From Babesia bigemina (lineage: Eukaryota): a stretch of 45,585 bases of DNA. This document shows positions 211-43,699 of this stretch, in pieces. Numbering within the stretch: the first letter of the stretch is position 1; every line of letters begins with the position of its first letter. Both the position numbers and the translations under genes were made by a program. The notes beneath the pieces are model-generated. The model ran no database searches, had not been told where the DNA came from, and was given only the letters and a program-made list of their open reading frames with translations. The stretch lies in NCBI RefSeq assembly GCF_000981445.1, contig NW_012237203.1, forward strand, positions 1 to 45,585, written 5' to 3'.

Positions 211-396
211 TTATTATAAAGGTTTATAGAGGTCATAGCGTTAATAAGACGAAGTAATTCGAAAGATTTGGACTTAGGGTGAACATGGTCAGGGCAGTGG
301 CAAGAGGTGGAAGAGGGGAAGCGAAGGGTGACAAGGCACAAGTTATTATTGTGGTCTAAAGAGGTCATAGCCGTATTATAGCGAGGTAATTCGAGG
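211..396 (-). other. Shared leader between 22-bp satellite and ves ORF (long version, with internal ~55-bp duplication)
   Basis: Near-identical to 25579-25766. Its satellite-proximal ~100 bp recur at 8760-8873, 34700-34816 and 43620-43699. It contains the ATG of MTS(L/I)(D/N)HxNNLCL. Confidence 0.75.
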
Positions 397-11800: not shown

Positions 11801-12045
11801 GGTAAAGGGGCGATGGAGAGTGGGTTAAGGGGCGATGGAGAGTGGGTTAAGGGGCGATGGAGAGTGGGTTAAGGGGCGATGTCGAGTGGATAAAGGGGCG
11901 ATGTGGAGTGGATAAGGAGCGATGTAGAGTGGGTTAAGGGGCGATGTAGAGTGGTTAAAGGGGCGATGTAGAGTGGATAAGGAGCGATGTAGAGTGGGTT
12001 AAGGGGCGATGTAGAGTGGTTAAAGGGGCGATGTAGAGTGGATGA
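8874..12045. repeat. 22-bp minisatellite array 2 (~3.2 kb)
   Basis: Same unit as array 1, with internal block duplications. Confidence 0.97.
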
Positions 12046-13128: not shown

Positions 13129-13599
13129 TCAGCTGCGCAGTAGATACCGCACCCTGTGGAACGGCCGGATGCGGAAGTAGATCATGGCGCAGATGACGAC
13201 GATGATGAGGGCGACGGGGGTGATGATGTAAGGGAGGGGATTAAAATTGGATGACGTAGAGTCATCGGTAGAAGATGCTCGAAGAGAGACGCTGTCAGAG
13301 AGCTGTTGAGTGGAGATTTGAGACAGAGCGCCGGGGGCAGAAGCAACAAACCGTTCACCGGTGGAAGTACGAACATAGACAGCAGGGCGTTTTGCCACAC
13401 AACAGTAACATTGACAGCTGGTGTCACATTTTTGACATCTCGAATGATCGCACAGCCATGCTCCACTCATGCGCGAAATTCGGAAACTGGCACATAGACG
13501 ACAATATTTGTTACATCCCCTACAACACCATGAACAGCATTTACAGTCACGCTTTGTACAGCTCTTGCCACACGTACACGGAGGAGTCCAATCACTCAT
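13129..13599 (-). CDS. Small Cys-rich protein with C-terminal TM anchor (156 aa), unknown function
   Basis: ATG at 13599 (MSDWTPPCTCGK). It has 18 Cys in the first ~67 aa, a Ser-rich linker, TM PYIITPVALIIVVICAMIYF and tail RIRPFHRVRYLLRS. The paralog at 28257-28730 keeps all 18 Cys while other residues diverge. Confidence 0.8.
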   Translation of the reverse strand: MSDWTPPCTCGKSCTKRDCKCCSWCCRGCNKYCRLCASFRISRMSGAWLCDHSRCQKCDTSCQCYCCVAKRPAVYVRTSTGERFVASAPGALSQISTQQLSDSVSLRASSTDDSTSSNFNPLPYIITPVALIIVVICAMIYFRIRPFHRVRYLLRS

Positions 13600-13606
13600 C
13601 TTCCCA

Positions 13607-14443
13607 CTCCCAGTCCCCTCAACCTGCAAACTTATCAATCACCTAGCAACGCACTCACCAACTGCAACACTTACACTGCCGCTCCCAGTCCCCTCAACTG
13701 CGAACATATCAATCACTTAAGCAGCACTCACCAACTGCAACACTACCACTGCCGCTCCCAGTCCCCTCAACCTGCAAACATATCAATCACCTAAGCAAGC
13801 ACTCACCAACTGCAACACTTACACTGCCGCTCCCACTCCCCTCAACCTGCAAACATATCAATCACCTAAGCAAGCACTCACCAACTGCAACACTTACACT
13901 GCCGCTCCCACTCCCCTCAACCTGCAAACATATCAATCACCTAAGCAAGCACTCACCAACTGCAACACTACCACTGCCGCTCCCAGTCCCCTCAACCTGC
14001 AAACATATCAATGACCTAAGCAGCACTCACCAACTGCAACACGTACACTGCCGCTCCCAGTCCCCTCAATCTACAAACATGTCAATCACTTCATCAAGCA
14101 CTCACCAACTGCAACACGTACTACTGCGGCTACCACTCCCCTCAACCTGCAAACTTATCAATCACCTAGCAACGCACTCACCAACTGCAACACTACCACT
14201 GCCGCGCCCAGTCCCCTCAACCTGCAAACATGTCAATCACTCAAGCAGCACTCACCAACTGCAACACTACCACTGCCGCGCCCAGTCCCCTCAACCTGCG
14301 AACATATCAATCACCAAGCAACGCACTCACCAACTGCAACACTACCACTGCCGCGCCCAGTCCCCTCAGCCTGCGAACATATCAATCACCTAACTAACGC
14401 ACTCACCAACTGCAACACTACCACTGCCGCGCCCAGTCCCCTC
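13607..14443 (-). repeat. ~74-bp tandem repeat, 11 units, each resembling an exon plus a ~34-38 nt GT-AG intron
   Basis: The minus-strand unit is GTTGAGGGGACTGGGAGCGGCAGTGGTAGTGTTGCAGTTG | GTGAGTGCTGCTTAGGTGATTGATATGTTTGCAG. Only 2 units occur at the paralogous position 28749-28905. Confidence 0.85.
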
Positions 14444-15611: not shown

Positions 15612-17117
15612 TCACGGTTGCAGGTACGATATCTTGGCAAGCCTTCCGACTTGCGCTGCCGCCAACAATGATTGCGCCGTTATCTTGTGCGATGACGGTG
15701 ATCGTAAGTGTGAGCGTATGTGGAGCACATCCAGTCTGCCAACCATGACGCAGATGAGGTAGAAGAGGGACAGTGACCAGAGTGCGACGGTCATCCACAG
15801 GAATGGTGCGCGGATGGTGAACAGGAATTCGTCGCACTCTTTGAACAATGCTGTGAAATGCGTCGATTGCAGTACATTTTTCAGTTGTATGTAAAAATGA
15901 TGGCAATAACTCTTACTGGTATCGCCGTGTAATTTAGTCGAATCGCGAAAAGTGAATCCGTAACTGTAAAAAGTACTACTTACACCGCGGCATTCGACAA
16001 TTCCGCGACACTGACAGTTCTCCATGCCGTGCTTACCGCGAGAACATTTCGTTCCATGAGTACAACGACTGCATCCCCAGTCGCGGCAGGAAATATTGCC
16101 GAATGAGTCCAGCAGTGATTTCAGGCAATCGTACAATGCCAATGGTAAATAGAGAGCCCATGAGAAATACAGTTCTGAATGCTTCTCGGCGAGATAGGTA
16201 TATGAATCGTCGCATAGAGCTCTGAGATAAGGAGCGCAATGAATCTTATCGCTACTAGCAAACGTACAATTCGTCTCCGCGGAGAGCGTAGACAGGTCGG
16301 CTTCTGAGTATGTTTTATGCTCTTCGAGACGGTGGCTGTGATATGCATCGCGAAGCGCATTCGTGAAGTCACTCGTGTCCTTGTACAGTTCGATGGACAT
16401 CTCCTTGGTAGCCGTTTCAAATGCTGTTTTGACTGCATTGCCATTGACGCCTTTACTATTGTCCAGCATACGCACCAATGTCGAAACAAACTGGTAGTGT
16501 TCTGGTAATGTAGACGGCGGTTTGGGCATCAAGCAAAGCAACGATGAATATTGCACATTGACGAAGAATTTAGTCAGCGCTTTGCATAGGTCCTCACCTG
16601 TCTTCATACCACCGGAAAAGCCACGGAAGCCGAGAGGCGTCAGGCAAGGTTGGCCGGGGAGAACCTTTGGACACGTCGCACATTTGGCCTTGCAACCGAT
16701 GCTGCTTACCTGGTGAGGCAAGTGGCCGGTAAGGCAATCGGACAAATAAGACTGAAGTGGCGATGTTGGTTGGCACTTTGCCAGGCACGTTGGTTGACCA
16801 TCTGCTTGGCACGCTGCTTTGCCCGTTGAGTGATCATTACACTGCGATTTAGATGACTCTACGCCTTTACCGTACCAACAGTCGGACCAACCGCGATGTT
16901 CGGCAGTCAACTTACACTGGCTGTGCAAGAAGTTGAGCGATGGCAATAAACTACGGAGGATGTCAAGCAGCATTTGTAGGCAGTCGTAGCCTTTGGACGG
17001 GTAGTGTAGATTTAGTGAATTACTGCAAAAGTCGACGGCGTACATGGAGTACGCGTCTCCTGTGCCGAGGATTGCAGTCAGCAGATCGTATGATCTCAGA
17101 CATAGGTGGCGCACTGC
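15612..17117 (-). pseudogene. ves1: 3' part of interrupted ves1-like gene (ves-B)
   Basis: AVRHLCLRSYDLL...TM...HLRSPSSHKITAQSLLAAAQVGRLAKISYLQP aligns with AVKRLCSRSHDIL... of ves-C. It joins in frame to 21454-25530 once the element and one TSD copy are removed. Confidence 0.88.
17105..17117. repeat. Target-site duplication, left copy (GGTGGCGCACTGC)
   Basis: Identical 13-mer at 21441-21453. The flanking bases differ on both sides. Confidence 0.93.
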
Positions 17118-17203
17118 TCTTGTTAAATTAAGTTATCTCATCTTATAGTGTGCTATGTGGCTACGTGCCTAGGGCCGGTTTTCGTGTTTGCGGGGCTAAC
17201 GCC

Positions 17204-18280
17204 TCACGCTGAAACCGGTTGCGGGATCCACGCCGGTCCATTGCCGGACGTCACTGGTGCCATCCATGCGGGCATCCATCCAGTTTGGGCTTGAGGGTCT
17301 TCTACGGAATCGTAGTCTTCTTTCGGCTTCATATCCCTCATCACTATTTTATGTGTTTCTTGGATCACTACCCTTTGTATGTGGGCTTCCATGCGATCCG
17401 ATATGCCCAGGTCCCGTCTATACTTGCTGTGTTCTTTCGTCACTATTCCCTCCCACGTCATAACGTAGGGGATAACCCTGATCTTGGTGTGCTGGTTAAA
17501 CTGTCGCGCCTTGAGGTCCTCAATAAGGTCTTCATACTTCTGCTTCTTGAACTTCTCCGTATCCACTAGGTTGTCTTGATTGGTGATTCCTATCTCCACG
17601 ATGGTTATGGTGTTCCTCCGCCGATCCGCCAGGATGATGTCTGGCCTGTTGTATTCCTTAGTCTTCTGAGTCTTGACCGTCTTGTCGTACGCGATCCATC
17701 CGTATTTTCCATGTACTTCACTCTCGATCTTGTGGGCGTCTATCTTCTCCTTGGGTAGTCCTATTTGCCTCCCGAGTACTGAGTGGACCCGTTTTGCTAC
17801 CTCGTTGTGCCTCTTCGTATATTCTAGGTGTAGTAGTTTCTGGCACTTCGTCGCGAGGTGATCCACGTTCTTGCCGTTGTTGCATCTTGTGCATTTCTTG
17901 GACGAAGACATCCATTGCAGATTCCTATCCTGGACTTCCGCTACGTTCGCTTCTTCTTCCGGAGTGAGTATTCCACACGTCAGGTACAAGGACGACGCCT
18001 CAATGTCCAGCTTGGGGTCCTCACGCTTGGCATACAGGACCTTATGAGTTGATTTTACGTGCATTCTGTTGTACAGCCATTTGTTTTGGGCCACCCTGAG
18101 GTCCCTGAGGCTCTTGTCCGTAGTGTCCTCCATTCCGAATTCCATTCCATATCTTCCTTCCAGGTGCATCTTGATGTGAGATATGTGCGCGTATGTGTCG
18201 CGAAAATGCTGCATGATCGCAGCTCTCCTGGTTGACGTCACCTCGTCTGCTGAAAGCGTCAACCACAGTCGTAGCAGCAT
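17204..18280 (-). CDS. C-terminal part of retrotransposon ORF: CCHC knuckle plus PD-(D/E)xK restriction-like endonuclease
   Basis: Motifs CTRCNNGKNVDHLATKC, YTKRHNEVAKRVH, NRPDIIL, IVEIGIT and KKQKYEDL occur in the canonical RLE order. Separated from the RT part by frameshifts. Confidence 0.88.
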   Translation of the reverse strand: MLLRLWLTLSADEVTSTRRAAIMQHFRDTYAHISHIKMHLEGRYGMEFGMEDTTDKSLRDLRVAQNKWLYNRMHVKSTHKVLYAKREDPKLDIEASSLYLTCGILTPEEEANVAEVQDRNLQWMSSSKKCTRCNNGKNVDHLATKCQKLLHLEYTKRHNEVAKRVHSVLGRQIGLPKEKIDAHKIESEVHGKYGWIAYDKTVKTQKTKEYNRPDIILADRRRNTITIVEIGITNQDNLVDTEKFKKQKYEDLIEDLKARQFNQHTKIRVIPYVMTWEGIVTKEHSKYRRDLGISDRMEAHIQRVVIQETHKIVMRDMKPKEDYDSVEDPQAQTGWMPAWMAPVTSGNGPAWIPQPVSA

Positions 18281-18375
18281 GCTTCCGCTCTAAATACCAT
18301 GCTGTGGAGCCCTCTCCCCATCTCTTTCCGGGGGAGGTAGAGCCTCTGTGTGTTCGCCCACTTCTTGTGTCCGCC

Positions 18376-21245
18376 TGCGCGTTAATTATTCTCCGTACTG
18401 CCAGGTCGATCTTGTCGACATGCGTGATGTCCATAGGGATCACGCCGATGTAGTAGTTGATGACGCTGAGGGCGTACTGGTTGATGGCCATCGAGAGGTT
18501 TTTCCCCGACAGCTTTGACGCAGCCAGTAGCTCCGTTCTCCTGCATATCTCCTGTAGTATTATGTCGAACATTCCGTCGCTTGTCAGTGAGTTTGAAGTC
18601 TCTGTGACTCCCAAGTACTTGTACGTTTCCGGGCCTTCCATCTGCTTGGCGATGCTGGCGCACGCCTCCGTGTTGGTTGCCGACTTGTCGCGGTTGATCC
18701 TGAGTCCTATGTCGTTGAAGAACTTCTCCACTTCTCGGCCCATTCCTCTCATCGTACTTTCCTCGTGGGCGAAGAACTTGAGGTCGTCAATATAGAGAAA
18801 GTGGTTTGTGGCGAATATCCTGCCGCCGGTCACGCTTAACTCCACCTTGGGGAAGATGCGAGTCAGGTGCCTGCTCAGCGGGTCCAAGCACAGCACGAAG
18901 AGAAGGGGCGATAGGCTGTCGCCTTGGAGAATGCCCCTCTCCACTTTCTTGTGCATGATTGTGTTCTTGTTCCACCGTATCTCTATATTCCACCTCTTGA
19001 TCGTCTGCTTGATGAAGTTTGATAACCACCCTGGTAGGTTAAGGTTGTCGATAACCCTTGCCAGGTACGCGTGGTCGATTGAGTCGTACGCCTTCATGAC
19101 GTCGACCCACGTTGCAAGTAACTTCCCCTTGTGCTTCTCGTTGAGCGCGATGTTCGCTAACGCGTGCTCCTTTGCACCCTGTACGTTGCTCCTCGTGCCC
19201 ATCTGGTTCTCGGACCGTAGTCCCCTGCCATCGACTTCTCGCTTAAGCGTCTCCGTTGCACAGCGGGTAGTTAGCTTGTATAGGTTGGACATGCATGTGA
19301 TAGGCCTGTACTGTGCGGCGGACTTTGGTTTCTTGTTCTTCGGTAGTAGGTACGTGATCCCACAGTAGAACCAGTCGTCCTGCACTTTGCCTTGCTGGCA
19401 TGCCTCCTCTACTAGCCTGTAAATGACTCTGTGAAGGGACGTGAGCCATTTAATGTAGTAGTTGTAGATCCCATCCGCACCGGGCGACTTCCAGTCTCGC
19501 AATTTCTTGACGATCGTGACGAATTCCTCGTATGTGGGAAAGCCTGCCTTGTTCTCTGCCGGTGGTCTTTCGACCAGATATCCTTCACCGTTGTGCGGTG
19601 CGTTTGGCTTCACCCACATTTGCGCCCAGTACTCTATCATCATCCCCTCGTTTATCGCCGACTCGTCCGCGTCCTGCTTGTTCTCCAGTGTCCTGTAGAA
19701 GTGTCCCGTGTAGAGCTCGAACATGCGGTTGTCGTTGTACAACTCCTTCTTGAACTTGGCGTTCTTGAGTTTGTCCTGCTCCTTTTGGAGCTCCTCTTGA
19801 GTCCTGCTGATCACGTATGACAGTTCCTGCGGCTTGTCCGCGATCATGTTGTACTTGTCCATTTGGCGATAAACGCGTTTCCTATCCTCCTTCTCCAGGG
19901 GGACCTTCTGCTTGTATTTCAGAAGTAATGCTCCTATCTCCTCCAGCTCCTTGATCCTCCTCTCAGCTGCCTCCTTCTTTCCCGAGGACGACGATGGTTT
20001 TGCGCTGTACTTGTCGTAGCAGTCCTGTGCCGTCTGATACAAGACGGCTAGCATCCCCATGTCAGTGACTGGGTTGTGCTTCACGTAGTTGTGGACCACT
20101 AGATCCAGCGACCTTATCGCCGTGAAGTCGAGGGAGTCCATGGTGTGTCTTTTGTTCTTTACTGTCCTAATCACACCAGGCTCCCTCAACCTCTGTGCCA
20201 TGATCCGGTCGAAATCCTCCTGCAGGGCGTTGTATGAGTCGACGTCGTGCAGCGATGCTATTTCTCCAACGTCCGTCGGTTGGCTCCGCGCTGCTTTGGC
20301 GACTACCTGTCTTGCCATCTGCTCCACCTCCTTGTGGGTCTTGTGGAATTCGAAATGCTCGTTGGCATATTCCGCGAGGACTTTCCATCCTCCTCGTGGC
20401 ATCCTCTGATACTTCGTCACTACTGCCTTGTAGACGTCCGGTACCCAATGACACCATGGTCCATCGATCTGACGCATGACACAGTGCAGGAACTGTAACT
20501 TGGCATTCAGCCTAGCGTAGTTCGGCGGCATTTGTGGCGTGTTCCCGGCCCGTTCAGCCTGCGGGGCGTGCCCTTCGGGTGCCCTCGGCAACGCAGCCGT
20601 CTCAGTGAGCGCCACCTCACTGGCGGTGCCCGGTGCTATACTGTTGTTTGATTCTCTCACAGGCCCGACTTGCTCAGGTTCCTCTTCGTCCACGTCCATA
20701 AAGTCATCCGACGATATGGAATACACGGTCGGAGAGCGGCAGCCACCGTTTCCGACAACCTCCCCTGCCGGTGGCTGCAGGGTAGACAGTGTCTGCACAC
20801 ACACGGGTGCGCGTTCCGAGGAACTCGGCCCGGCGTTGCAAACCACGACAGGCGGCGTTTGAGCCGTGTTTCCTGTCTTTTTGGCCTTCCGGTTGTTACC
20901 CTTTTGGCCCTGGGGACCGCCGTTCCGCGCTTTGTTTCCAGCGCCCTTCACAGCCGGAGTGGTTCCGGGCTGGTGTCGTTTCCGGCTTGCCTGCGGGATT
21001 GGCCGGCTTTCGCCGCCACGGCCGGCCCCCTTCGAATTTGTGGGTTTACCTTTAGGGCCCTGAACACCGCTTTGTACCGGTTTTCTGGATTCATGCCGCC
21101 TTTCGGGTTGCCGACACTCTCGGCGCCCCACGGTGGCAAGCGGAGCATCGATGTCCATCCCATCGGGGACGTCCACGTCAATAACCATGAGGTCTCCGTC
21201 CTCATCGATTTGACTGCTCAGCTGCACTTCTTGTGAGCTCTCCAT
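18376..21245 (-). CDS. N-terminal and reverse transcriptase part of retrotransposon ORF
   Basis: ATG at 21245. Motifs KSPGADGI, YRPITCMSNLYKL, NQMG, WVDVMKAYDSIDH, RGILQGDSLSPLLF, HFLYIDDLK, GLRINRDKS and YKYLG are non-LTR RT motifs in order. Meaningful sequence leaves this frame at ~18376. Confidence 0.93.
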
Positions 21246-21440
21246 TGGTACCTTGTTCGTCTATCCAGCGCGCCTGTGTGGCCGCCTTTCGCCTCGCGAT
21301 GTTGCCGCTTTAATTCCGCACTTTTGGCCTTCAATACACCCCCCAGTGACATCGGAAAATTTTCCTTTCTGTGATAAACCCGAGAAAACACGTTTCTCAA
21401 AGTTTCCCCCAAAATCACAGAAGATTCCAACTCCAACTCC

Positions 21441-21453
21441 GGTGGCGCACTGC
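21441..21453. repeat. Target-site duplication, right copy (GGTGGCGCACTGC)
   Basis: Identical to 17105-17117. Confidence 0.93.
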
Positions 21454-24400
21454 CTTTACGCTATTGTCATACGTGATGTTACTCGGGTACGCGTTCAGGC
21501 ATAATGCATCTGGCGTGACTAGCGTGAACTCATGGTCCTCGCCGGCCTCTGTCGTTTGCTTCTTTGGATCTTCGAATAAGTCACTCATCGTGTCACGCAA
21601 CAACGCATCATACACAGAATTGCACGGCAACCCACACAACCAGCACAGCATTTCGAACACGGAGGATGGCTGTCGCTTCGCCGCGAAGGTGGACTGGTGA
21701 CAGACTTCATAATATGTTTCAAGGCAGTTGTGTAAAGTTTTAAGTGGGCCAGTGTCTTTCTCAGCATCATGATGTTTGTAGACACGGCCATCGTCATTCT
21801 TAACGAGGCTTTTGTAGACATGCCAGCCTAACATACCATCTCCGTGACGCAAGTGACCGTCTTGTTTGTCCTTGGATACGACGTATCCGTTGTTGCCGAG
21901 GAATTGTCCAATTGGTGTCGATTGATGTATCTTGTCGGACCTCCACGTGGTAACGGAGTACTTTCTTACTGTGTTCAGCACATTGTATGACGTCGAAACT
22001 ACGGTCAAGCAGACCTTACTTAACTTGGTTCCGTACGCTGTTAGTTTATCTTTTTCGACGAGCTCAGCACCAAACCTCTCACTGTCGTAGGTCGAGATGT
22101 ACGCATTGTTGAGCTCCGTTGCCGAAGTCGTGAAACCGTTCTTCAGAGCATTGAGAAGCGAAGGGGTATTCCCTTCACCATATAATGAAGGCTTCAATTC
22201 ACTGAGCGTTACTTTCAGCGCCGATAGATTTCGAGAAAACTCGTGATTGAAGTACTCCGAAGTGACAAGATCTCCGAACAACTTAGCCAGCGCGTCACGT
22301 GTTGGCTTAATTTTTTCATAGTCCGTTTTGAAGTCCGGCTGCTTCTCTAGATCATGCAAAAACCTATTTAGGCTTCCAAAGAACTTTGCTGCCGCCTGAC
22401 TCATTGGTGATTTTTCTTGCGCAACGGGCTTAGGATTTATGTCTTTGATGGTCTTGATTGACTTTTCGTGCGTTACGAAGTGCTTCTCAAATTTCTTCAT
22501 GAACCCCTTGTAACCGATGTCCAGATCGTCGGTGATTTCCTTAGGTAGAAGCTCCAACTCCTTCTTGGTTTTTTCCGCAAACTCTAGCAGCATGTCTTGC
22601 ACCGAAGTGACGTAGTTCTTGTTGATCTTGGTGATGAGATCCTTCTGGGCTTCTTCGACGTTTGAGCTGACAAAAGATCCGATCGCTGTGATCGTAGCCT
22701 TACCGGTAGGTTCAGCGCTACTTAGGAAGTAGGTAGCCTTTTTGATGACGTCATTCAACTCTTTGTTACCTAGCTCACTGATTTCATATCTGATTCTATT
22801 AATGCTATCCTTCACATGTTCAGCCTTGTTGAAGAACTTGTCTCTCAAACTGATCAGATTCCCCTTCGCAAATTCGCCGTCACTCTTAACTAACTGACAG
22901 AGGTCATGAAGAGTGGCAGTGACTTTCTCCAATTCCTTTACTGCGTATTCCTTTTCACTGTCGATTTTATTCAAAGCAGACTTAACTTTCTCCCTAATAT
23001 CTTTGATCTTCTCCGGAAGGGTGCCTGCTAGCTGGTCAATGTCACCGCTTAACTTGCCTGGTGTTTGGTCGACGCACGTTGTGTAACCAGTGAATATACT
23101 AGCATCCATCTTCACTTTTGCAGGATCACTTGCTGGATCGCTGTCATCCTTTTTTAACTTCTCCCCAAGGACTCTCGTCACCCCCTCGATCGCGTTGTCG
23201 ACGGCGGCGGCGAACGTTTCTTCTCCATTTGTTTGCCCTTTTTCGTTAACGCCCAATGCCTTCTCCAATTTTCGAACTATCTCTTTTGCTGTTTTATAAG
23301 CGTTATCCACATTCTTAAAACTGCAATCTTTTAAAAGCTTGTCAATTTTTTCAGCGCCACCACGCGCACGTCCGATGAGTAAATTAAATGTAGCTTCCAC
23401 TGTTATTTTAAGATAGTATTCATAAGCTGTTTTGAATGTAGCTGAATCTTGATATCCTAATTTGAGATGTACTTGGTGAGTGAAAGATTCAACATCGCTA
23501 GCTTTCGTTTGTTTTTCAAGCGCCTCAGCCAGCTGCACGAGAAATGACGATGTGTATTTTAGATTCGTATCTATATCGCTGTTGGAGTCTTTCGGCGTCG
23601 GCGGTATTTTAATGCGTTTGACAATGCTAGTAGTAATCTCATTCGTTAGCGCCTTTATAACGTCTTGCAATTTTTCACCATTATTTTTTACATACCAATA
23701 TAGATACGTTCTCACCGGTTCTTTTTCAGCTAGCGTCGACGTCCACATCTTCAAAACCTTCTCCCCGAAAGTATTCTGATTGAACTCATCCAAATAACCC
23801 CTCACTTTGTACACAATTGCCGCCAGACCTGATGGTCTTGTTACATCTTCTCCTGCTTTGCCCCGTATGCCTGCAACTTCACTTTTTATCTGCTGAATAA
23901 CTTTTTCAATCTTCTTATCTTTTTCGGTTACTGCGCTGCCTGGTCTTTCATTTACCGTCTCGTACAACTTCCCAATCGCATCCTTAATCCCCGTCACCTG
24001 CCCCTCCACCGCGTGCTTCACCTTAAACAAATCCCCTTTAAGCGCGTCGTCCATGGATTTCACCTGCGCAAGGGCCTTAGTAACTTCTTCTTTGACGAAT
24101 CTACCAGCGTCCGATCCGGCTCCGTGCAGCATCAGTACGGCAGTGCTAATCTCCCTTACAGCGCCCTCAATTCTATACGGCTTCATACCTGAATCGCCTT
24201 CGTTAACCTCTTTCAGTAGTGATTCAACCTTCTCCAAAGCCGACGTTATAACTATCGTGACTGAGTCAATCCACGTTTGCAGCTCACTTACGTACCCCTT
24301 TAGCTTGCCACTAATGATGTTAAGCTGCTCTAAGATTTTCTGCACCCTCGACTTTAAGTCATTGACAAGTTTATCTATATCTTCACGAACTTTGTTATTT

Positions 24401-25578
24401 ATGCAGTTTTCGACGTTGGAAAATACAGATTTAATCTTTGCTGTCGTTTCCTGCAACTCATTTTGCCGGCTCTCTGCCATTCTATTCATTCGGTCGGTCT
24501 CATACTTAACACTCTTAATGGAATTCTTAACTCTAAGTGATAAGTCATTATTAAGATCATTGATCGCGTTTTTAATTATATTATCGGTATTGTCAATGTT
24601 CAACTGAGTATTAAATTTCGCTGCGTGCTTCTGACATTGTTGAAGCAGCTTGTCGATCTTCTCTACGGCGCTGCTGACCTGGAAGTCCTTGGCTTTAGAA
24701 AGTGTTTCTTGCGGTAGTATCTCGGTTACACTTCTCTTGAACCCTTCATTCACCTGCGAAAGTATGAGAGTCATCGGTTCACTCACCTTTTTATTACTGC
24801 CAGCAACACTCTCATTATACCCCCGCACCCCTTTAACCACACTTTCAATCGCAGCATTAAAACCTTTTTTACCGGCGTGTTTTTTCTCGTTAAGTATGTT
24901 AATTGCTTCAGTAATTTGCTCATTATGCTGCCCTAAATGCTCTTTGATGTTACTGAGAACACCACTCAAAAACGCCACCACCCCGTCACACAGCCTGTCA
25001 AGGTCAGAGTAGACAATCCCAGTGCCGTCGTAGCCTTTGGAAGTTGGATTGAAGCCGAGGAAAGTTTGAAGTCCATCACATAAATTAACTAAGAGATTTT
25101 TAGGCTCATTTTGTTGTTTATTAGAATTAGTCAAAGATCCACAAAGCTTCTCCACTTTCTCCAAAGCCTCCAACTTGGACTGCAATTTGGCTAGCTCAGC
25201 AGAGGAAGAGGGGGAAGGAGAGTTATGATTAAGGTTATTAGGCTTATTAAGTTGCGTAATTTGATAAGTAATTTCGGCAATTTTTTTAGACACTTCAAGT
25301 TGAAGTTGACCAATTACACCGGTGTCATCAGCCTTGCCAGCAGAGTTAACAGACTCAGAAAGCTTAGTAACATGAGAGGAGTAATCATTTTTAAGCTCTT
25401 CATGACTGTTAATTTTAGCGATAATAGCATACATAACGGCTTTCTTAACACTCTCACTTTGACCAACAAATCCTCCAAGTTGACCAGCAAGGTGACCAAG
25501 GCTAATGAGCTTGGAGTCAATGTCATCCAAGGCTCTTCTAGTAGCATCGTCACTAAGAGAATGGTCAGTATCAACAAG
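21441..25578 (-). pseudogene. ves1: 5' part of interrupted ves1-like gene (ves-B)
   Basis: Has the LCDGLQTFLGF...GIVYSDLDRLCDGV block and EMLCWLCGLP. Homology stops at NSVKAVRH, and translation runs 8 codons into the element (RSWSWNLL*). The frame opens after TAA at 25579-25581. Confidence 0.88.
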
Positions 25579-25766
25579 TTATTATAATGGTTTATGGAGG
25601 TCATAGCGTTAATAAGACGAAGTAATTCGAGAGATTTGAAGATAGGGTGAACATGATGGGACTTGGCAGTGGACGAGGTGGAAGATGGGAAGTGAAGGGT
25701 GACAAGGCACAAGTTATTGCTATGGTTTATAGAGGTCATAGCGGTATTATGGCGAGGTAATTCAAG

Positions 25767-27756
25767 GGATGTAGAGTGGGTTAGGGAGCGATGAGGAGAA
25801 GGTTAAGGGGCGATGAGGAGAAGGTTAAGGGGCGATGTAGAGTGGATAAAGGGGCGATGTAGAGTGGGTTAAGGAGCGATGTAGAGTGGGTTAGGGAGCG
25901 ATGTAGAGTGGGTTAAGGGGCGATTAGAGGAGGTTAGGGAGCGATGTAGAGTGGGTTAGGGAGCGATGTAGAGTGGATAAAGGGGCGATGTAGAGTGGGT
26001 TAGGGAGCGATGTAGAGTGGGTTAGGGAGCGATGTAGAGTGGATAAAGGAGCGATGTAGAGTGGATAAAGGAGCGATGTAGAGTGGATAAAGGAGCGATG
26101 TGGAGTGGGTAAAGGGGCGATGTAGAGTGGATAAAGGGGCGATGTAGAGTGGATAAGGGGCGATGTAGAGTGGGTTAGGGAGCGATGTAGAGTGGGTTAG
26201 GGAGCGATGTAGAGTGGATTAGGGAGCGATGTAGAGTGGTTAAGGGGCGATGTAGAGTGGATAAAGGGGCGATGTGGAGTGGGTTAGGGGCGATGTAGAG
26301 TGGATAAAGGAGCGATGTGGAGTGGGTAAAGGGGCGATGTGGAGTGGATAAAGGGGCGATGTGGAGTGGGTTAGGGAGCGATGTAAGGTGGGTTAGGGAG
26401 CGATGTAAGGTGGATAAAGGAGCGATGTGGAGTGGATAAAGGGGCGATGTGGAGTGGGTTAGGGAGCGATGTGGAGTGGATAAAGGAGCGATGTAGAGTG
26501 GGTAAGGGAGCGATGAGGAGTGGATAAAGGAGCGATGTGGAGTGGGTAAAGGGGCGATGTAGAGTGGATAAAGGAGCGATGCGGAGTGGATTAGGGAGCG
26601 ATGTAGAGTGGGTTAAGGAGCGATGTGGAGTGGATAAAGGGGCGATGTAGAGTGGATAAAGGGGCGATGTAGAGTGGGTTAGGGAGCGATGTGGAGTGGG
26701 CTAGGGAGCGATATAGAGTGGGTAGAGGAGCGATGAAGAGTGGGTTAAGGGGCGATGTATAGTGGAGTAAGGGGCGATGTGGAGTGGATAAAGGGGCGAT
26801 GTAAGGTGGGTTAGGGAGCTATGTAGAGTGGGTTAGGGAGCGATGTGGAGTGGATAAGGGAGCGATGTAGAGTGGGTTAAGGGGCGATGTAGAGTGGATA
26901 AAGGAGCGATGTAGAGTGGGTTAGGAGCGATGTGGAGTGGATAAAGGGGCGATGTAGAGTGGATAAAGGGGCGATGTAGAGTGGGTTAGGGAGCGATGTG
27001 GAGTGGGCTAGGGAGCGATATAGAGTGGGTAGAGGAGCGATGAAGAGTGGGTTAAGGGGCGATGTATAGTGGAGTAAGGGGCGATGTGGAGTGGATAAAG
27101 GGGCGATGTAAGGTGGGTTAGGGAGCTATGTAGAGTGGGTTAGGGAGCGATGTGGAGTGGATAAGGGAGCGATGTAGAGTGGGTTAAGGGGCGATGTAGA
27201 GTGGATAAAGGAGCGATGTAGAGTGGGTTAGGGAGCGATGTAGAGTGGGTAAAGGAGCGATGTAGAGTGGGTTAGGGAGCGATGTAGAGTGGGTTAGGGA
27301 GCGATGTAGAGTGGCTAAAGGAGCGATGTAGAGTGGATAAGGGAGCGATGTAGGGTGGGTAAAGGGGCGATGTAGAGTGGATAAGGGGCGATGTTGACTG
27401 GGTTAGGGAGCGATGTAGAGTGGATAAAGGGGCGATGTAGAGTGGATTAGGGAGCGATGTGGAGTGGATAAAGGGGCGATGTAGAGTGGATAAGGGAGCG
27501 ATGTAGAGTGGATTAAGGGGCGATGTAGAGTGGGTTAGGGAGCGATGTAGAGTGGATAAAGGGGCGATGTAGAGTGGATAAAGGGGCGATGAGGAGTGGG
27601 TTAAGGAGCGGTGTAGAGTGGATAAAGGGGCGATGTAGAGTGGATAAAGGGGCGATGAGGAGTGGGTTAAGGAGCGATGTAGGGTGGGTTAGGGAGCGAT
27701 GTAGAGTGGGTTAAGGGGCGGTGTAGAGTGTGTTAGGGAGCGATGTAGAGTGGATA
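25767..27756. repeat. 22-bp minisatellite array 3 (~2.0 kb)
   Basis: Same unit as array 1. Confidence 0.97.
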
Positions 27757-29753: not shown

Positions 29754-32700
29754 TCACGGCTGCAGGTACGATATCTTGGCAAGCTTTCCGACTTGCGCTG
29801 CAGCCAACAGAGATTGCGCCGTTATCTTGTGCGATGACGGTATCCTCAGGTGTGAGCGTATGTGGAGCACATCCAGTCTGCCAACCATGACGCAAATGAG
29901 GTAGAAGAGGGAGAGGAGCCAGAGCGCCAGCACTAGGTAGGTGAACGGTTCTCTGATGGTCCAAATGAAGTTGTCACATTCCTCAAATAATTTGGCGAAG
30001 TGTTGCGATTTCAGCAGATTACTCAGTTGTGTATGGAAACTGAGGCAGAATTTTCTGTTAGTTCCATACAGCGTTTTTGCGTTGCCAAAAGTGAACCCGT
30101 ATTGGTAGAACGTAGTCATCACTCCACGACAGCTTATCAATGCTTTGCACTTGCAGCTGTATTCGACACCATGCTTACCCGGCTTGCACGAACATTTCGT
30201 ACAACCGGAGCCTCCACAATCAATCTGCTGGAACGCATCGAGCAACGATTTAAGGTAACTGTAGAATGTCCACGGCAGATATACAGCCCATGACAGGTAG
30301 AGATCGGCGTGCTTTTTGGCGAGGTACTTGTACGCATCGGAAGCTGTGGAGCAGAGGTAGGGAGCGCAGTGAATATCCCTGTCATGAGGTAGATTGCATG
30401 ATTCTCTTGACAGGCTCCACAAGTCAGCTTCCGTAGATTTGGAATGGCCCGAGCTGTTGTGACCCGTTTGGTTGCGATATGCATTCTGCAGCGCACCTGT
30501 GAGTTTGCTTGTCTCCTTGTATAGCTCGATGGACAGCGCTTTCGTTTTTGTTACAAAAGCTAAGCTGACATCACCAGCGCCGTTAGCATAATCTAACATA
30601 CTACTTAACGTCAACGCAAATTGGAAGTGTTCGGGCAATGTAGACGGCGGCTTGGGCAGCAGACCGAACAGCGTGTTAATATTAGAATTGTCGAAGAATT
30701 TGGTCAGCACGTTAGAGATGTCCTTACCTGTCTTAGTGCTTCCGGAGAAACCTCTGAACCCAAGTGGTGTTATACATGGCGCACCGGGTAGACTTTTGGG
30801 ACACGTTTTACACTCGGACTTACACCCCGCTGAAACCAACTGGTGAGGCAGGCACCCGGGTAGGCAGTCGCGAAGATACGACATCAACGGTGATCTAGGT
30901 AGGCAATCGGTTGACTCGTCGGCGGGATGTTCACCGCATTGCCAATTGGAGTGTTTGACTCCTCTGCCGTACTGACAGCCGGACCAGCCGTGGTATGCAG
31001 CGCTTAGGCCGCATTGAGTATTCAAAAATTTAAGTGAGGGTAGTAGTCTGCGAAGAATGTCCAATAGCATCTGGAGGCAATCTTCGCCCTTGGATGGGTA
31101 GTGAAAGTTCAGCGAATTGGTGGAGTAGTCGACGGCGTACATGGAGTACGCATCCCCGGTTCCAGCTATTGTTGTGAGAATATCATGAGATCTTGAACAT
31201 AGGCGTTTCACTGCTCGCTGAGTATCATCCATCGCTATGTTTTGTGGATACGCTGCCAGGGGTTTGTCGCTGATATATGTGACGGGGATGCCATCGGCGT
31301 CTTCGGGCTGTTTAGTGGGATCGACGAACAGTTCACTGACAGTCTCATGTAACATTTCGTCAAACACGTTATTGCACGGTAGCCCGGACATCCAGCAAAG
31401 CATCTCGAAGATGTTACATGGACGTTTCTTCGCAGAGAAGGTGGCGACGTGGCAGACTTGGTAATATATCTGGAGACAGTCGTGCAGTGTATCCAGTGCG
31501 TTTTGCTTGGATTTATCAATGTAATACAAGTGGTGTTCATCACTTCCGAACATACGTTTGCAGATGAATAGTCCTGTCATGCCTTTACTGTCCTGCAGCT
31601 CCCAGTGCTTCTTCCCGTCCTCGGTAACCTTGTAGCCTTGAGTGGCGAAATATTTTCCGAGCTCTGTGTTTATGTTTATTTGATCGCTTTTACACCTTGC
31701 AACGCAGTACTTAAGTATAGTCTTGAACTCGGAATACAGGATGGAGAGCAGCGACAGGCACACTTTAGCGCACTTGTTGCCATCATCCGTAACTTTCGTA
31801 GTTCTTGCATCGACTAATATCATACCCTCCGAGCCTCCATCATATCTATTAATGTACGCCTTTCCAAGTTCACCCACCAGACCCCGGAGGCCGTGGGCAA
31901 TGGTTTCCAGCAGCGGAGTGTTCGGCTCAGAAAATGACTCAGGGTGGAGGCCATCGATCGCATCGGTCAGTCCGTTCAGCAGTCTGGGCACATGATGATC
32001 GTACCTGTTGCCGGCTCTGATTTGGTGGATTAATTTCTCGAGTTCATTTTGTACGCAAGTAACGGCGTCGGCGTAGTTGTTTGTTGGCCTCTGAGACGAA
32101 GGGTGTTTCTTGGCATGGTTGGCGTCGTTCTCTCTGCCGATCTCATCTTTGAGGTAGGCGTGGAGTGGTGAGCAGAAATTCTGGAAAGCCTCAGACAGAG
32201 TGTCGAGTTTTAAGTCATCTTTCTTAGGAACGATGTTGGTAGTCAATGTTTCATGCAATTTTCCCATAAAACCTTTATAGCCTTTTTGCAGGTCTTCATC
32301 GATATGGGTTGGCAGCGTATCTAGTTCGCTGTGAATCTTTTCCGCAAATTGTGTGAGCAGCATTTTAATGGACGAAACGTAATCTATACGGGCCTTTTTG
32401 GTGAGATGTTCCTTGGCTTCTGTCACGTTCGTGCCAACGTGTGCCTTAAGTCCGTCTATTGTTTTATTGCGTACATCATCGGCTCCGTTAACGAACTCCT
32501 TGGCTTTCTTAATGGCACGTCCCAAGTCACCAGTGCGGAGGTTGTGAAGATTGTCCTTGATTTCTTGTAGACTGCCTTTAACCACTTTCATATCAGTCGA
32601 CTTACCGATCGTTTTACTTTTAAGAGTCTGCAATAATTTGTTAACATCTGCAGCAGAACGGGCGAACTCCTCGGTGATTGCATCGAGACTTTTTTTTATT

Positions 32701-40700: not shown

Positions 40701-43639
40701 TTCAGTTCATCGGCGAAGTGCTTTTCAGCATCCGAGGTGAATTTGAGTAACTTCTTGGTCAACTCGATTGGTTTGTCGACAAGCGTCTTTTGGAGTTCAG
40801 TGAGGTCATGCTTGATCTTCTTGATGCTATGCTCAGTGCCAGTTGCCTTTTCTTCGTGCTTCTTAAAGTATGTATCTCGCAGCTTGAGTAATTCCGTTTT
40901 GGCACTAGCAGGATCCAGTTCAGCGGCATATTGAATTGCACTGCACAGGTTGTTGAGGTCATTGGTAACGTCGGCATATTTCATGGCAACTTGACCGCTA
41001 AAGGTGTCGATATTAGACAAAGCATTCTGCACTTGCTCCCTAATCTCACCGATCGCCGCGGGGAGGGAGCCTTCATCGGAGGTGCCGGTTAGTTCAGTGC
41101 CGTTTTTAATGGGACCCGATTCTTGTATGACAAATTTATTGTATGTGTTAAACGTCGTTTCCGTTTCGAGCGTGACTGTTTGACTCGTTCCGTTCGGCAA
41201 CTTTCTTCCAATCTCATTCGTCACCTCGTCGATCGCGGTGTCTACGGCGGCGGCGTAGTTCGTCTCATCAGCGGAATTGCCTACGTTAAGTGCCTTATCA
41301 ATTTTCCCTACAAGATCATTTGCGTTGTTATGTATGTTGTCTAAGCTTATAAATTTACAGTCATTAAGCAATTTTTCGACTTGTTCTGCGGTTTGTTTAG
41401 CAGTTGTGTAAAGCGCTATGATCGTATATTCAATGGCAATCAGAAGTGAAGCGCTTTGTTCTGATGTCTTCTGACTTTTTAGCAGAATAGCTCTCTCAAT
41501 ATCACCGAGTATAGATTCGGCGGACTCATAAATGTCCGTTTCGTCGAATTTGGCATCAAGCAGTTTGACAAAATCATGGCAGGCTTGTTTGACAGCGTTA
41601 AGTGTGTTCTTTATGACTCCTTCTTCTGTTTTATGCTCCATTAGTTGTCGAACTCTTTCACCTGCTTGAGGAATTGCACTCGTCGTAAATTCTTTCTTAA
41701 TCATATCCCTTATTATTTTGTTGAGCGATGTATTGACGCCTGCTTTTCCACCAGTCTTGTAATCCGGGTTTAACTTATCATAATTAGCTGTATTATAGTC
41801 CCGTGTATAATCCTGCGCCGTCTTATCTTTCCTCAAAATATCATCTAACCAGGCATCCACAATCGTCTCGAAGCTCTTATACTTATTTCCATGATCTAGG
41901 ACGGCATTCAAAATAGCGGCAAGACCTTCTGGTCGAGGTGCTCCTTTTCCTCTAATGCTTGCAACTTGCCCTTTCAAATGTTTGATGACCTCCTGAAGCT
42001 GTTTCTTATTTTCCTTGCTTTTCAGACCTCTACCGTATGCATCAAATTTATCATACAACTTCCCAATCGCCTCCTTAATCCCCGTCACCTGCCCCTCCAC
42101 CGCTTGCTTCACCTTATACAAATCCTCTTTAAGCTTTCCGTCCATGTCTTTCACCTTCCCAAGCGCTGTTTTAACTGTCTCCGCTACTTTTTTCTTAGCT
42201 TCCTCTCCAGCGTCATATAACATATCAACCTGCTTCTTAAGCCCATCAGCAGCCTCATAAATTGAAGAAACTTTATTGAACGTAGAGCCCTGATTCACAT
42301 ACTCCAATATGTTCTCAACCTGCTTTAGCGCCGCCTCAACGGCGACTTCCGCCTGCTTAATCCATCCTTCGAATGCATCAAGGTGATGCAGCAGATTGCT
42401 ATTTATTGTGTTAAGTTCATCTGAAATTTTCGTAACTCGCTCATTAATGTTTTTAATCAACTCCTTCATTTGCGCATCAATTCTACAGTCCACGTTCACT
42501 TTCAAACTGCTCAACGTCTTCTTAATTTTATCTTCCGTTGCCTCTAAATCCTTACTCTCTTTACTCGACAACTCTTTAAGACGCTTACTCTCATGCTGCA
42601 TATTCTTACGCACGTTCTCAATTGTATCACGCAATTTGGGATTTAAGTCTTTTATCGCATTTTTTGTGGCGTCTGTTTTTGTTTTAATGTCAACAGCAGT
42701 AATAAAGTCTTTTGCATATTTTCGACAATCCTCCACCAAGGATTTTGCCTTCTCGACACTCTCTTGGGTGGAAGCCGTAGGCCTTTTTGGATCAATGCTA
42801 TTTGGCAATTTAGTTTGTAACTCTTCTTTTTTATAGTTTTTCATGCCTCTTTGAAGATTTTTAATTGCCGTCTTAACAAGGTCATTCGACTTTTTTACAT
42901 TACCATTATACCTCCCCACCCCTTCGACCACCTTTCCAATCGCAACATTAAAACCTTTTTTACCGGCGTGTTTATTTTGCTCAAGAAGCGTAATTGCTTC
43001 ATTTAAAGTGTTTTTATGCTGCCCTAAATGGCTGTAGATGTTACTGAGAACACCACTCAAAAATCCCATCACCCCGTCACACAGCCTGTCCAGGTCGGAG
43101 TACACAATGCCCTGGCCATCGTAGCCTTTGGAAGATGGATTGAAGCCGAGGAAAGTCTCGAGGCCAGAGCAGAGGTTTTCTAAAAGATTTTTGCAATTGT
43201 TTTTTTCAGTAAATCCAGTAAGACTCTCTTTAAGCTTTTCAAGCTGAGACAACTTGGACTCAATGTCCTTTATGGCAGGAGATGGAGGATGTTTTTTGTG
43301 AGCATTTATACACTCTTCTAGACATGTTTTATTAAACTTTATATTGTGATTTTCAGCGATTTCATTTTCTTTTTTCCCAGATTCTTTAAGCTTCTTAGTA
43401 GTGTCACTAATTTGCTTCTCGTAGTACTGACAGTAAGTCTCTTTATCAGAGTATTTGAAGGGGCAAGAAAGTTTCTTTTTTTCGGCTTGGAGGGACTTAG
43501 TAGCGCTACTTATAGCCTCCTCAATCAACTTTTTTAAAGCTTTAGCCAACTTGGTAAGACCCTCACCATCACCATTCCCATACCTAACCTGGATCAACCA
43601 GTCGATGGACTCAGTCAGAAGGGAAGTGAAGGGTGACAA
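37781..43639 (-). CDS. ves1: ves1-like variant antigen (ves-D), ~1950-codon open frame; no ATG in first ~190 codons
   Basis: Has ESIDWLIQV near the N-terminus, LCSGLETFLGF...YSDLDRLCDGVM, SPLQSFLED, a TM and the tail NKLNRVFYLQP. The track start is TTG, and the leader ATG at 43673 is out of frame. Confidence 0.82.
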   Translation of the reverse strand: MSPFTSLLTESIDWLIQVRYGNGDGEGLTKLAKALKKLIEEAISSATKSLQAEKKKLSCPFKYSDKETYCQYYEKQISDTTKKLKESGKKENEIAENHNIKFNKTCLEECINAHKKHPPSPAIKDIESKLSQLEKLKESLTGFTEKNNCKNLLENLCSGLETFLGFNPSSKGYDGQGIVYSDLDRLCDGVMGFLSGVLSNIYSHLGQHKNTLNEAITLLEQNKHAGKKGFNVAIGKVVEGVGRYNGNVKKSNDLVKTAIKNLQRGMKNYKKEELQTKLPNSIDPKRPTASTQESVEKAKSLVEDCRKYAKDFITAVDIKTKTDATKNAIKDLNPKLRDTIENVRKNMQHESKRLKELSSKESKDLEATEDKIKKTLSSLKVNVDCRIDAQMKELIKNINERVTKISDELNTINSNLLHHLDAFEGWIKQAEVAVEAALKQVENILEYVNQGSTFNKVSSIYEAADGLKKQVDMLYDAGEEAKKKVAETVKTALGKVKDMDGKLKEDLYKVKQAVEGQVTGIKEAIGKLYDKFDAYGRGLKSKENKKQLQEVIKHLKGQVASIRGKGAPRPEGLAAILNAVLDHGNKYKSFETIVDAWLDDILRKDKTAQDYTRDYNTANYDKLNPDYKTGGKAGVNTSLNKIIRDMIKKEFTTSAIPQAGERVRQLMEHKTEEGVIKNTLNAVKQACHDFVKLLDAKFDETDIYESAESILGDIERAILLKSQKTSEQSASLLIAIEYTIIALYTTAKQTAEQVEKLLNDCKFISLDNIHNNANDLVGKIDKALNVGNSADETNYAAAVDTAIDEVTNEIGRKLPNGTSQTVTLETETTFNTYNKFVIQESGPIKNGTELTGTSDEGSLPAAIGEIREQVQNALSNIDTFSGQVAMKYADVTNDLNNLCSAIQYAAELDPASAKTELLKLRDTYFKKHEEKATGTEHSIKKIKHDLTELQKTLVDKPIELTKKLLKFTSDAEKHFADELKKEVEKDIQNAEKSLTSHVRWQYVDSIKLLLQACADKAQEELSPLPKLIDIDLTIGFKGFMKAVEGEVTEGKNIGQNIEKLSSRAADPVDSADKRTAFQNLSKAFKHFWSPLASYVNKEIVRLNEEENDKKHPAVKDVYDYHGQLIAIYDAFNEALTHINKTHRYDHTLPELLDNVDAAIANLKPDGFAKPSSPVIDSLTEGLTHFVGELRKVYISAYDKETFESELIHDTGKDVVYSNNVDRIKELTKYGEKCAKVFLTLLEVLTHELDGLKKGCGKHQTKQISLKALENRKSVDNPLGAFFQKNGYRVSKEADSHEGELRNKTKFTAKEISDNLLNKHLNFNYDAIKEWKKTKNNAAARSSHAASQITLLDILDFFHEHLLDYFKTSHLRHIPSPKAPCNIYQMLQWLTGLRYNPMYETLCGHFKGLFKKPEGDKAQKDSEYKLDSTETKLNAEELTTMLRRVCNYSVDVLVAIQGHGHADGVYAVDFYVNSEGLSYPSNPGQCFDLLVDVASRVYHQMLFLYKQCNNGPQSSGWSDCHYGRGIAGSAWNCNTLQCPDQECEQKHDQTADQHYKCGVKSPLQSFLEDGLPGFLPHQFTKPGCKLECAVPNHFGKPCLTPMGFTDIGIAASHTKQGKHLKDVLEKFCGTVDPRLTKLCSMLTCLLQKPPQTLGDIFAFYHKFLDKWDKSSEHKNAAFVEAVQKANFGNAQTKLDVACIQSGHTHSDKHLKGELLTLTKCNSNVSPTPPCGAYLQPLYLQTREIYSKHHADRYLSWVVYITDTFYDLLKKLYDECCKKCKTPGSRCYEKCCTANCQVTYSAEEPTVNTLEDVKHNTNCNSIVKCPNTHPTLYKYGFTFGSPHDLSGQYHAKTRRTCKDFCTALERVIGKGCLLADLLKHIDNFLWIIRQPFSYLVLSLWLLSLFYLLHIMVIRLDLLHIKSHLHSPSSHRIAAQSLLAAARVNKLNRVFYLQP

Positions 43640-43699
43640 GGCACAAGTTATTGCTATGGTTTATAGAGGTCATAGCGGTATTATGGCGAGGTGATTCAA

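What the first reader, a model, noticed from the sequence alone, without database searches (positions are those of the whole stretch)
21441..21453. Possible site preference: ves multigene family as retrotransposon safe harbour
Established: RLE elements commonly target multicopy sequences (R2/R4 in rDNA, CRE/SLACS in spliced-leader arrays, Dong in microsatellites). Seen: the target lies in the conserved C-terminal third of ves, in the sense orientation. The homologous empty site in ves-C (31202-31214, GGCGTTTCACTGC) matches 9/13, while ves-A and ves-D differ more. Inference: the element may specialise on redundant antigen genes, both inactivating copies and providing recombination homology. One insertion cannot demonstrate specificity.
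Basis: inference. Interest (0 to 1): 0.75.

Follow-up and report, generated by a model that had tools for sequence, protein, structure and literature searches.

The report
Retrotransposon family crowds Babesia antigen genes
A young jumping gene has split one surface-antigen (ves) gene of the cattle parasite Babesia bigemina; its relatives sit at unrelated sequences yet cluster next to ves genes, likely because these redundant genes tolerate insertions rather than because the element reads a fixed target site.

Summary
The 13-bp duplication is real (17105-17117, 21441-21453). It flanks a 4,323-bp non-LTR retrotransposon (RT, CCHC, restriction-like endonuclease) inside a ves gene of Babesia bigemina, and two other runs hold the empty allele. 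A preference for this sequence or codon is refuted. The 9/13 match in ves-C equals background identity (mean 9.05/13). No other displayed junction carries the 13-mer. A second full-length insertion lies near the N-terminus of a ves-D-like gene, antisense, with a 10-11-bp duplication. The regional claim holds: in B. caballi 89 of 103 RT loci abut a VESA1_N-cluster gene (22 expected), and in B. bigemina 6 of 6 sampled copies lie within two genes of a ves1-module gene. Best reading: a weakly specific element whose survivors pile up in the largest dispensable territory of a compact genome (0.55); active regional targeting remains open (0.3). The family is catalogued as LINE-like; the ves association was not found in my searches.

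The parts
17105..17117 (-). Target-site duplication, copy at the element's 3' end (13 bp)
   Evidence: Exact repeat; a contig of run X2 joins 17104 to 21441 with 13 letters fitting either side
21441..21453 (-). Target-site duplication, copy at the element's 5' end (the finding)
17118..21440 (-). Full-length non-LTR retrotransposon, 4,323 bp, GC 53.5% against 45% in ves; no other piece of it in the window
   Evidence: near-identical B. bigemina proteins
21435..21440 (-). 6-nt duplication of the element's first bases, peculiar to this copy; contigs of X1 and X2 stop matching at 21434
21246..21434 (-). 5' untranslated region, about 190 nt; no Rfam family at the gathering score, fold z -1.5
17204..21245 (-). 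Single ORF (1,347 aa in intact copies). Broken in this copy by two single-base gaps near 18280 and 18373 relative to all 4 runs laid: an assembly error or a copy-specific lesion
   Evidence: (table 4)
18603..19328 (-). Reverse transcriptase domain, PF00078, YIDD
   Evidence: E 1.2e-30; the two Asp are conserved in 69/69 and 68/69 rows
17843..17893 (-). CCHC zinc knuckle, followed by the RHN motif
   Evidence: C/C/H/C in 59/64, 63/64, 63/63 and 63/63 rows of A2
17534..17644 (-). Restriction-like endonuclease motif PD..E..K..KY
   Evidence: D 62/63, E 48/61, K 61/61, K 60/61, Y 61/61; whole model nearest to R2 structures
17118..17203 (-). 3' untranslated region, 86 nt, A/T-rich end, no poly(A); tail length varies between copies
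21441..25578 (-). ves-B, part upstream of the insertion
   Evidence: ORF; similarity to ves-C and ves-A
15612..17117 (-). ves-B, part downstream of the insertion, with the conserved transmembrane C-terminus
31202..31214 (-). Homologous empty position in ves-C (9/13, equal to background)
43463..43472 (-). Position in ves-D (about codon 63 of the ORF) homologous to the second insertion, seen in sample S1 (runs X1, X3); empty in the window
   Evidence: (24 of 25 nt match, 0 of 100 shuffles)

Best explanation
This is one recent insertion of a young restriction-like-endonuclease (RLE) non-LTR retrotransposon family of Babesia bigemina whose copies have unrelated flanks; they cluster in ves territory, likely because insertions elsewhere in this compact genome are purged by selection. 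Shown: TSD, empty allele, domain motifs, different positions, orientations and TSD lengths, and clustering beside ves genes. Inferred from R2-type biology: the protein nicks the bottom strand with weak sequence preference (both complete sites read TGC then C at the 3' nick, n=2), primes reverse transcription there, and a second nick 10-13 bp away makes the TSD. Inferred: ves arrays (hundreds of long, mostly silent, redundant genes) are the largest space where a 4-kb insertion costs little, so they act as a passive safe harbour; duplication of ves blocks may add copies.
For: Insertion is polymorphic: an X2 contig joins 17104 to 21441 and two X5 contigs continue from 17117 into 21454. The family is young: 8 accessions encode 1,347-aa proteins at 99.7-100% identity, among 24 RT gene models in B. 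bigemina. No fixed site: none of 9 distinct 3'-junction rows and none of 11 distinct 5'-side rows shown carries the 13-mer (21 of 52 and 13 of 28 rows were shown). The second complete insertion is N-terminal and antisense, with a 10-11-bp TSD. In fused gene models the window's codon lies about 2,170 aa downstream of the element (P0121) or well downstream of it (P0136). Clustering: B. caballi 89/103 abut a VESA1_N-cluster gene against 22 expected (shift null 23, sd 5, max 41) and 100/103 lie within 3 genes; with strict cluster 01 it is 65/103 against 14.6. B. bigemina: 6/6 within two genes. Non-ves sites exist: between two 6-Cys-module genes, two genes from a Myb gene, and 3 far loci in B. caballi. 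T. equi holds a 13-member cluster although it has no ves family (recalled). Precedent: EhLINE1, an RLE element with only a GCATT preference and no insertion at 3,902 genic motifs (PMC1635306, passages).
Against: Other multigene families of B. caballi, presumably also dispensable, rarely have an RT neighbour: 2 of 123 genes against 72 of 450 ves1c genes (p 2.5e-6). Gene length and splitting of ves models confound this, but it leans towards a ves-specific bias. 100 of 103 stays improbable even if ves territory were 85% of tolerated space (p 6e-5, assuming independent loci). The protein keeps a conserved three-helix N-terminal domain that may bind DNA or chromatin (fold match inconclusive). All enrichment nulls count genes, not base pairs. 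Some rows counted as junctions may be diverged element tails rather than flanks.
Confidence: 0.55

Rival explanations
1. Active regional targeting: the element's protein is drawn to silent ves chromatin or to a ves-bound factor and inserts anywhere within it, in either orientation, as Ty5 does at yeast heterochromatin (recalled).
For: 100/103 B. caballi loci lie within 3 genes of a VESA1_N-cluster gene. RT neighbours are ten times commoner beside ves1c genes than beside other multigene families. The pattern recurs in B. bigemina, B. ovata and B. caballi, whose RT regions are about 50-78% identical. The N-terminal helical bundle has conserved tryptophans (W85 52/56, W105 37/56).
Against: Selection on a haploid, gene-dense genome predicts the same end pattern. 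Non-ves neighbours exist. B. bovis has ves genes but no detected element (PMC9141347). The N-terminal fold was not assigned (best Z 7.8, to an unrelated protein).
Confidence: 0.3
2. Hitch-hiking: few true insertions, multiplied by the duplication, transposition and gene conversion of ves blocks.
For: ves1 genes are routinely moved between loci (PMC4066756, passages). Some flanks recur across runs (17143 in X2, X4, X6, X7).
Against: The displayed junctions are mostly different from each other. The two complete insertions have their own TSDs and empty sites. Fused gene models show different positions.
Confidence: 0.1
3. Sequence-specific targeting of this ves codon, in the manner of R2/R4 in rDNA (the strong form of the first reader's idea).
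For: Enzyme class (RLE) and a clean 13-bp TSD.
Against: 9/13 is background and the site is 4/13 in ves-A and ves-D. No other displayed junction has the sequence. The second insertion differs in codon, strand and TSD length.
Confidence: 0.03

Closest known systems
LINE-like elements of Babesia and Theileria equi (PMC9141347); RT gene cluster 03 of B. caballi (PMC10463595)
   Same: The same family: 0.97% of the B. bigemina genome; the best BLAST subject of cluster 03 is XP_012770853 = P0128.
   Different: In the passages and sections I read, these papers give no ends, TSDs, insertion polymorphism or link to ves loci ('target site' has 0 occurrences in PMC9141347).
EhLINE1 of Entamoeba histolytica (PMC1635306)
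   Same: RLE non-LTR element of a parasitic protist with only a short nicking preference, no fixed target, and absence from genes.
   Different: EhLINEs are reported outside genes; this family sits inside and beside a variant-antigen gene family.
R2 retrotransposons (solved structures 9NL2, 9NL3, 8GH6, 9DOU)
   Same: Best Foldseek matches of the whole model (E 1e-28 to 3e-27, TM 0.54-0.56), ahead of LINE-1; RT-CCHC-RLE order.
   Different: No N-terminal zinc finger found, no fixed target, variable TSD.
R4/Dong/Rex6 and CRE/SLACS site-specific elements
   Same: RLE class; associated with multicopy DNA (PMC1635306 introduction).
   Different: Those read a defined sequence; here the link is regional. 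Clade membership was not tested against reference sequences.
Ty5 (silent chromatin), TRE (tRNA genes), ingi/RIME near trypanosome VSG and RHS genes (all recalled, from no call)
   Same: Retroelements concentrated in tolerant or antigen-gene territory without a long target sequence.
   Different: Different enzyme classes; targeting is shown for Ty5 and TRE (recalled) but untested here.

Membership tests
RLE-type (R2-group) non-LTR retrotransposon | Single ORF with non-LTR RT | tested here: met
   PF00078 E 1.2e-30; 1,347-aa ORF in intact copies; this copy has two single-base gaps
RLE-type (R2-group) non-LTR retrotransposon | C-terminal CCHC knuckle and PD..(D/E)..K endonuclease; no APE domain | tested here: met
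   Motif conservation in A2; model (pLDDT 85.4) nearest to R2; RVT_1 is the only Pfam family
RLE-type (R2-group) non-LTR retrotransposon | No LTRs; TSD; 5'-truncated copies | tested here: met
   Only a self-match in blastn; TSD and empty allele; more contigs and loose ends at the 3' end (contig evidence only)
Site-specific RLE elements (R2, R4, Dong, CRE/SLACS) | All copies at one target sequence | tested here: not met
   0 of 9 distinct 3' rows and 0 of 11 distinct 5'-side rows shown carry the 13-mer; second site unrelated
Site-specific RLE elements (R2, R4, Dong, CRE/SLACS) | Fixed orientation and junction geometry | tested here: not met
   Sense with 13 bp in the window; antisense with 10-11 bp in sample S1
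Site-specific RLE elements (R2, R4, Dong, CRE/SLACS) | Target conserved across the multicopy family | tested here: not met
   9/13, 4/13 and 4/13 in the three other window ves genes; background 9.05/13 for ves-C
R4/Dong clade | RT groups with R4, Dong, Rex6 and EhLINE in a tree | not tested
   No named reference of that clade was among the fetched proteins; the tree holds only hits and cluster members
R4/Dong clade | N-terminal Myb-like domain without zinc fingers (recalled feature) | tested here: inconclusive
   No zinc-finger pattern. Helical bundle with conserved Trp. No Foldseek hit at E 0.001; VIA Z 4.5-5.4 to trihelix, homeodomain and BEN folds, top row an unrelated protein at Z 7.8, rmsd 2.2, 61 aligned
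Regionally targeted (safe-harbour) retroelements | Copies enriched in one genomic compartment | tested here: met
   B. caballi 89/103 against 22 expected; B. bigemina 6/6 within two genes
Regionally targeted (safe-harbour) retroelements | Bias present at insertion, before selection | not testable with these tools
   Needs new insertions; only contigs and gene lists were available

The most novel reading that the evidence does not exclude
A still-mobile RLE retrotransposon lineage, possibly acquired from microsporidia, gave up sequence-specific targeting and now homes on silent ves chromatin across B. bigemina, B. ovata and B. caballi. It would knock out antigen genes differently in each isolate and seed near-identical 4-kb repeats that drive the ves transpositions and chromosome breaks reported in these genomes.
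Probability: 0.2. Interest if true: 0.8.

Novelty: new variant of a known kind. Interest (0 to 1): 0.5.

Why it matters
Most apicomplexan genomes carry few or no transposons, and the Babesia LINE-like family has been catalogued only as repeat models or RT genes in the papers I read. Here it has defined ends, TSDs, present/absent alleles between isolates and at least 8 intact near-identical coding copies, so it was mobile recently. Its copies sit almost wholly in variant-antigen territory. This gives a testable source of ves gene loss and of the ves-associated breakpoints reported by Jackson et al. (PMC4066756), a set of strain markers, and a natural case for separating targeting from selection in an enzyme class known for strict specificity. 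The specific claim of a preferred 13-bp site is ordinary chance.

Tried and rejected
No whole genome is held for the window, so the requested logo of all copies could not be built; junctions came from Logan contigs, with 21 of 52 and 13 of 28 loose-end rows shown. The search for longer RT fusions found none among 1,222 candidates, though two such proteins were already in hand, so the blank is weak. The non-RT tail of P0131 could not be identified as ves: 8 hits, mostly low-complexity; it is not counted as ves. Two other flanks have no match in the window at 3 mismatches; this says little, since the window holds 4 of about 270 ves genes. No RNA holder is listed; runs X4, X6 and X7 are only guessed to be RNA, so nothing is claimed on expression. 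No Rfam family at the gathering score and no unusual fold in the UTR stretches folded. Atlas search of the N-terminal part: best 0.84, a lead only. N-terminal domain: no Pfam family, no Foldseek hit, middling VIA scores. The Jackson supplementary spreadsheet is a proteome table, not a ves list (part 1 of 11); its docx was not read. The B. ovata main text has no 'transcriptase' or 'transpos'. The careful tree did not finish; the quick tree was used. Earlier scan findings: none. Rejected: a chance 13-mer repeat (empty allele seen); an assembly chimera (same evidence); the 9/13 match as evidence of a target (background).

Full report
1. Observation. The 13-mer at 21441-21453 recurs exactly at 17105-17117 and nowhere else in the window (0 of 100 shuffles). 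The 4,323 bp between are a minus-strand element with an RT domain (PF00078, E 1.2e-30). It splits a minus-strand ves-type gene 1,375 codons from the start of its ORF and about 500 from its end. The homologous ves-C position, 31202-31214, matches 9/13, and ves-A and ves-D match 4/13. But ves-B and ves-C are 68.6% identical there, the mean 13-mer match is 9.05, 60% of 13-mers reach 9, and ves ORFs fill 48% of the window. Nothing in the window alone indicates a target.

2. What the element is. The RT region is 99-100% identical to Babesia bigemina proteins; relatives follow in B. ovata, B. caballi, B. divergens, Theileria equi, microsporidia and metagenomes (170 hits, 120 listed). Two clusters hold 14 B. 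bigemina proteins; 8 accessions encode a 1,347-aa protein at 99.7-100% identity. A published cluster table lists 24 B. bigemina RT gene models, after I drop one Myb gene that joins through a fusion. The protein has RT, a CCHC knuckle, RHN and a PD..E..K..KY endonuclease motif, nearly invariant in a 70-row alignment. Its model (pLDDT 85.4) is nearest to R2 structures. No N-terminal zinc finger was found; a helical bundle with conserved tryptophans could not be assigned a fold. The window's copy lacks single bases near 18280 and 18373 relative to all 4 runs laid, so it is either broken or mis-assembled.

3. The insertion is real and recent. A 227-nt contig of run X2 joins 17104 to 21441 with 13 letters fitting either side, and two contigs of X5 run from 17117 into 21454. 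The empty allele therefore exists in two runs of different studies.

4. Test of site specificity. No whole genome was held, so I used contigs of 7 of the 24 listed runs; 21 of 52 and 13 of 28 loose-end rows were shown. Leaving out the empty-allele row and one row in the ves flank, there are 9 distinct rows at the 3' end and 11 on the 5' side. None shows the 13-mer (read by eye). Only 3 of the 3' rows end within 5 nt of the window's junction; the others may include diverged tails, and some 5'-side rows are diverged element sequence. One sample (S1) gives both ends of a second full-length copy. Its two flanks share a 10-nt word and match adjacent parts of the window's ves-D (24 of 25 nt, 0 of 100 shuffles). 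That insertion lies near codon 63 of a 1,959-codon ORF, is antisense to the gene, and has a 10-11-bp TSD. Fused gene models agree. In P0121 (labelled ves1ba) the element precedes 2,700 ves residues and the window's codon lies about 2,170 residues further on. In B. ovata P0136 it follows 634 ves-like residues that align to ves-C 348-638. In B. caballi P0005 it precedes a VESA1_N match. P0051 is fused to a Myb-annotated gene and P0131 to an unidentified tail. Such fusions can show only sense insertions and are not base-resolved. Sequence, codon, strand and TSD length all vary. The only shared feature is TGC followed by C at the bottom-strand nick in the two complete sites, a lead with n=2.

5. 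Test of ves enrichment. For B. caballi I took the gene lists of Table S2 of PMC10463595 (list sizes matched the paper) and used tag order as gene order. The 141 RT genes merge into 103 loci. Of these, 89 abut one of 866 VESA1_N-cluster genes (22 expected; circular-shift null 23, sd 5, max 41), 49 have one on both sides, 100 lie within 3 genes and 3 are far. The authors call only cluster 01 and a few others ves-like; with cluster 01 alone it is 65 of 103 (14.6 expected), and 90 within two genes (22.3 expected). For B. bigemina I sampled 6 of the 10 chromosome-type accessions, chosen because their neighbours share a number prefix, and saw the first 5 rows per prefix. Four abut a ves1-module gene and all 6 lie within two genes of one. 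Counting only rows labelled ves, 3 abut, 4 lie within two, 5 within three and 6 within four. Bounds are p 8e-5 to 0.012 if ves genes are 5.6-15% of genes. A seventh accession is itself the ves1ba fusion; 3 chromosomal and 14 other accessions were not examined. These nulls count genes, not bases; ves genes are long, and a split ves gene counts twice.

6. How it most likely works. By established R2-type biology (PMC2881922, passages) the protein nicks the target, primes reverse transcription at the nick, and a downstream second nick makes the TSD; incomplete copies are 5'-truncated. Inferred here: the endonuclease has only a short preference, like EhLINE1 (PMC1635306), and surviving copies collect where a 4-kb insertion is tolerated. 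In a gene-dense haploid parasite (recalled) that space is mainly the ves arrays, of which few genes are expressed at a time (PMC4066756 abstract; PMC10463595). I give this 0.55. Against it, other B. caballi multigene families have RT neighbours at 2 of 123 against 72 of 450 for ves1c, and the concentration is extreme, so active regional targeting keeps 0.3. Hitch-hiking on ves duplications gets 0.1 and a fixed target 0.03. A role in ves recombination is untested.

7. What is known. PMC9141347 (passages, section 3.2, one supplement search) reports LINE-like elements in B. bigemina (0.97% of the genome), B. ovata, B. divergens and T. equi, none in B. bovis, and no target analysis in what I read. 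PMC10463595 (passages, Tables S1-S3, 9 rows of S4) notes the RT gene expansion. PMC4066756 (passages, part 1 of one supplement) reports ves transposition and ves genes at breakpoints and has no occurrence of 'reverse transcriptase'. PMC5660447: passages and parts of one supplement. PMC4202319: passages only. Searches found no paper linking these elements to ves loci. The library omits most subscription journals and Repbase, and unread supplements could bear on this.

8. Verdict. Observation confirmed; interpretation partly supported. It works like a relaxed-specificity RLE element. It is not a member of the site-specific class, and R4-clade membership was not tested. The new point is a recently mobile, isolate-polymorphic family concentrated in variant-antigen territory in at least two Babesia species, cause undecided. 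Interest 0.5; new variant of a known kind.

Noticed in passing
RT tree of 65 proteins: The 11 Babesia rows form one clade (SH-aLRT 100) inside a group (98) of microsporidian (Vairimorpha, Hamiltosporidium, Pancytospora) and unnamed metagenomic RTs; T. equi stands apart in an open fork. Horizontal origin is possible; quick tree, no one-clade test, midpoint root.
   Followed up: partly
B. bigemina CDR94894/CDR94896 and B. ovata BOVATA_048210-048230: An RT copy lies next to a Myb-domain gene in both species, yet the B. bigemina copy is 98% identical to young copies: an old shared insertion kept homogeneous, or a reused site.
   Followed up: no
B. bigemina CDR96051-96053: An intact copy sits between two genes of the 6-Cys module, possibly splitting one.
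   Followed up: no
window 17132-17232, runs X6 and X7: A 101-bp diverged remnant of the 3' end lies inside contigs of 2,790 and 1,751 nt at depth 71-103; the runs are only guessed to be RNA.
   Followed up: no
window 21435-21440 and the X1 5' junction: The 5' junctions carry extra bases: a 6-nt duplication in the window, one extra base (G on the element strand) in X1, as expected from template jumping or cap copying (inferred).
   Followed up: no
window 393-1887, 8875-12041, 25768-27753, 34819-36704, 43702-45582: Each ves gene is bracketed by long 22-bp tandem arrays, with 20-, 12-, 24-, 75- and 205-bp repeats in a recurring order between genes; a candidate ves regulatory or recombination module.
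   Followed up: no
window 13129-13638, minus strand: A short Cys-rich ORF ending in a predicted transmembrane segment, in the spacer between ves-A and ves-B; no Pfam family.
   Followed up: no
ves-B 25700-25760 and ves-D 43620-43700: The two genes share a near-identical upstream stretch right after the 22-bp array.
   Followed up: no
ves-A 3218-3292: A 30-bp tandem duplication repeats ten residues just after the transmembrane segment.
   Followed up: no
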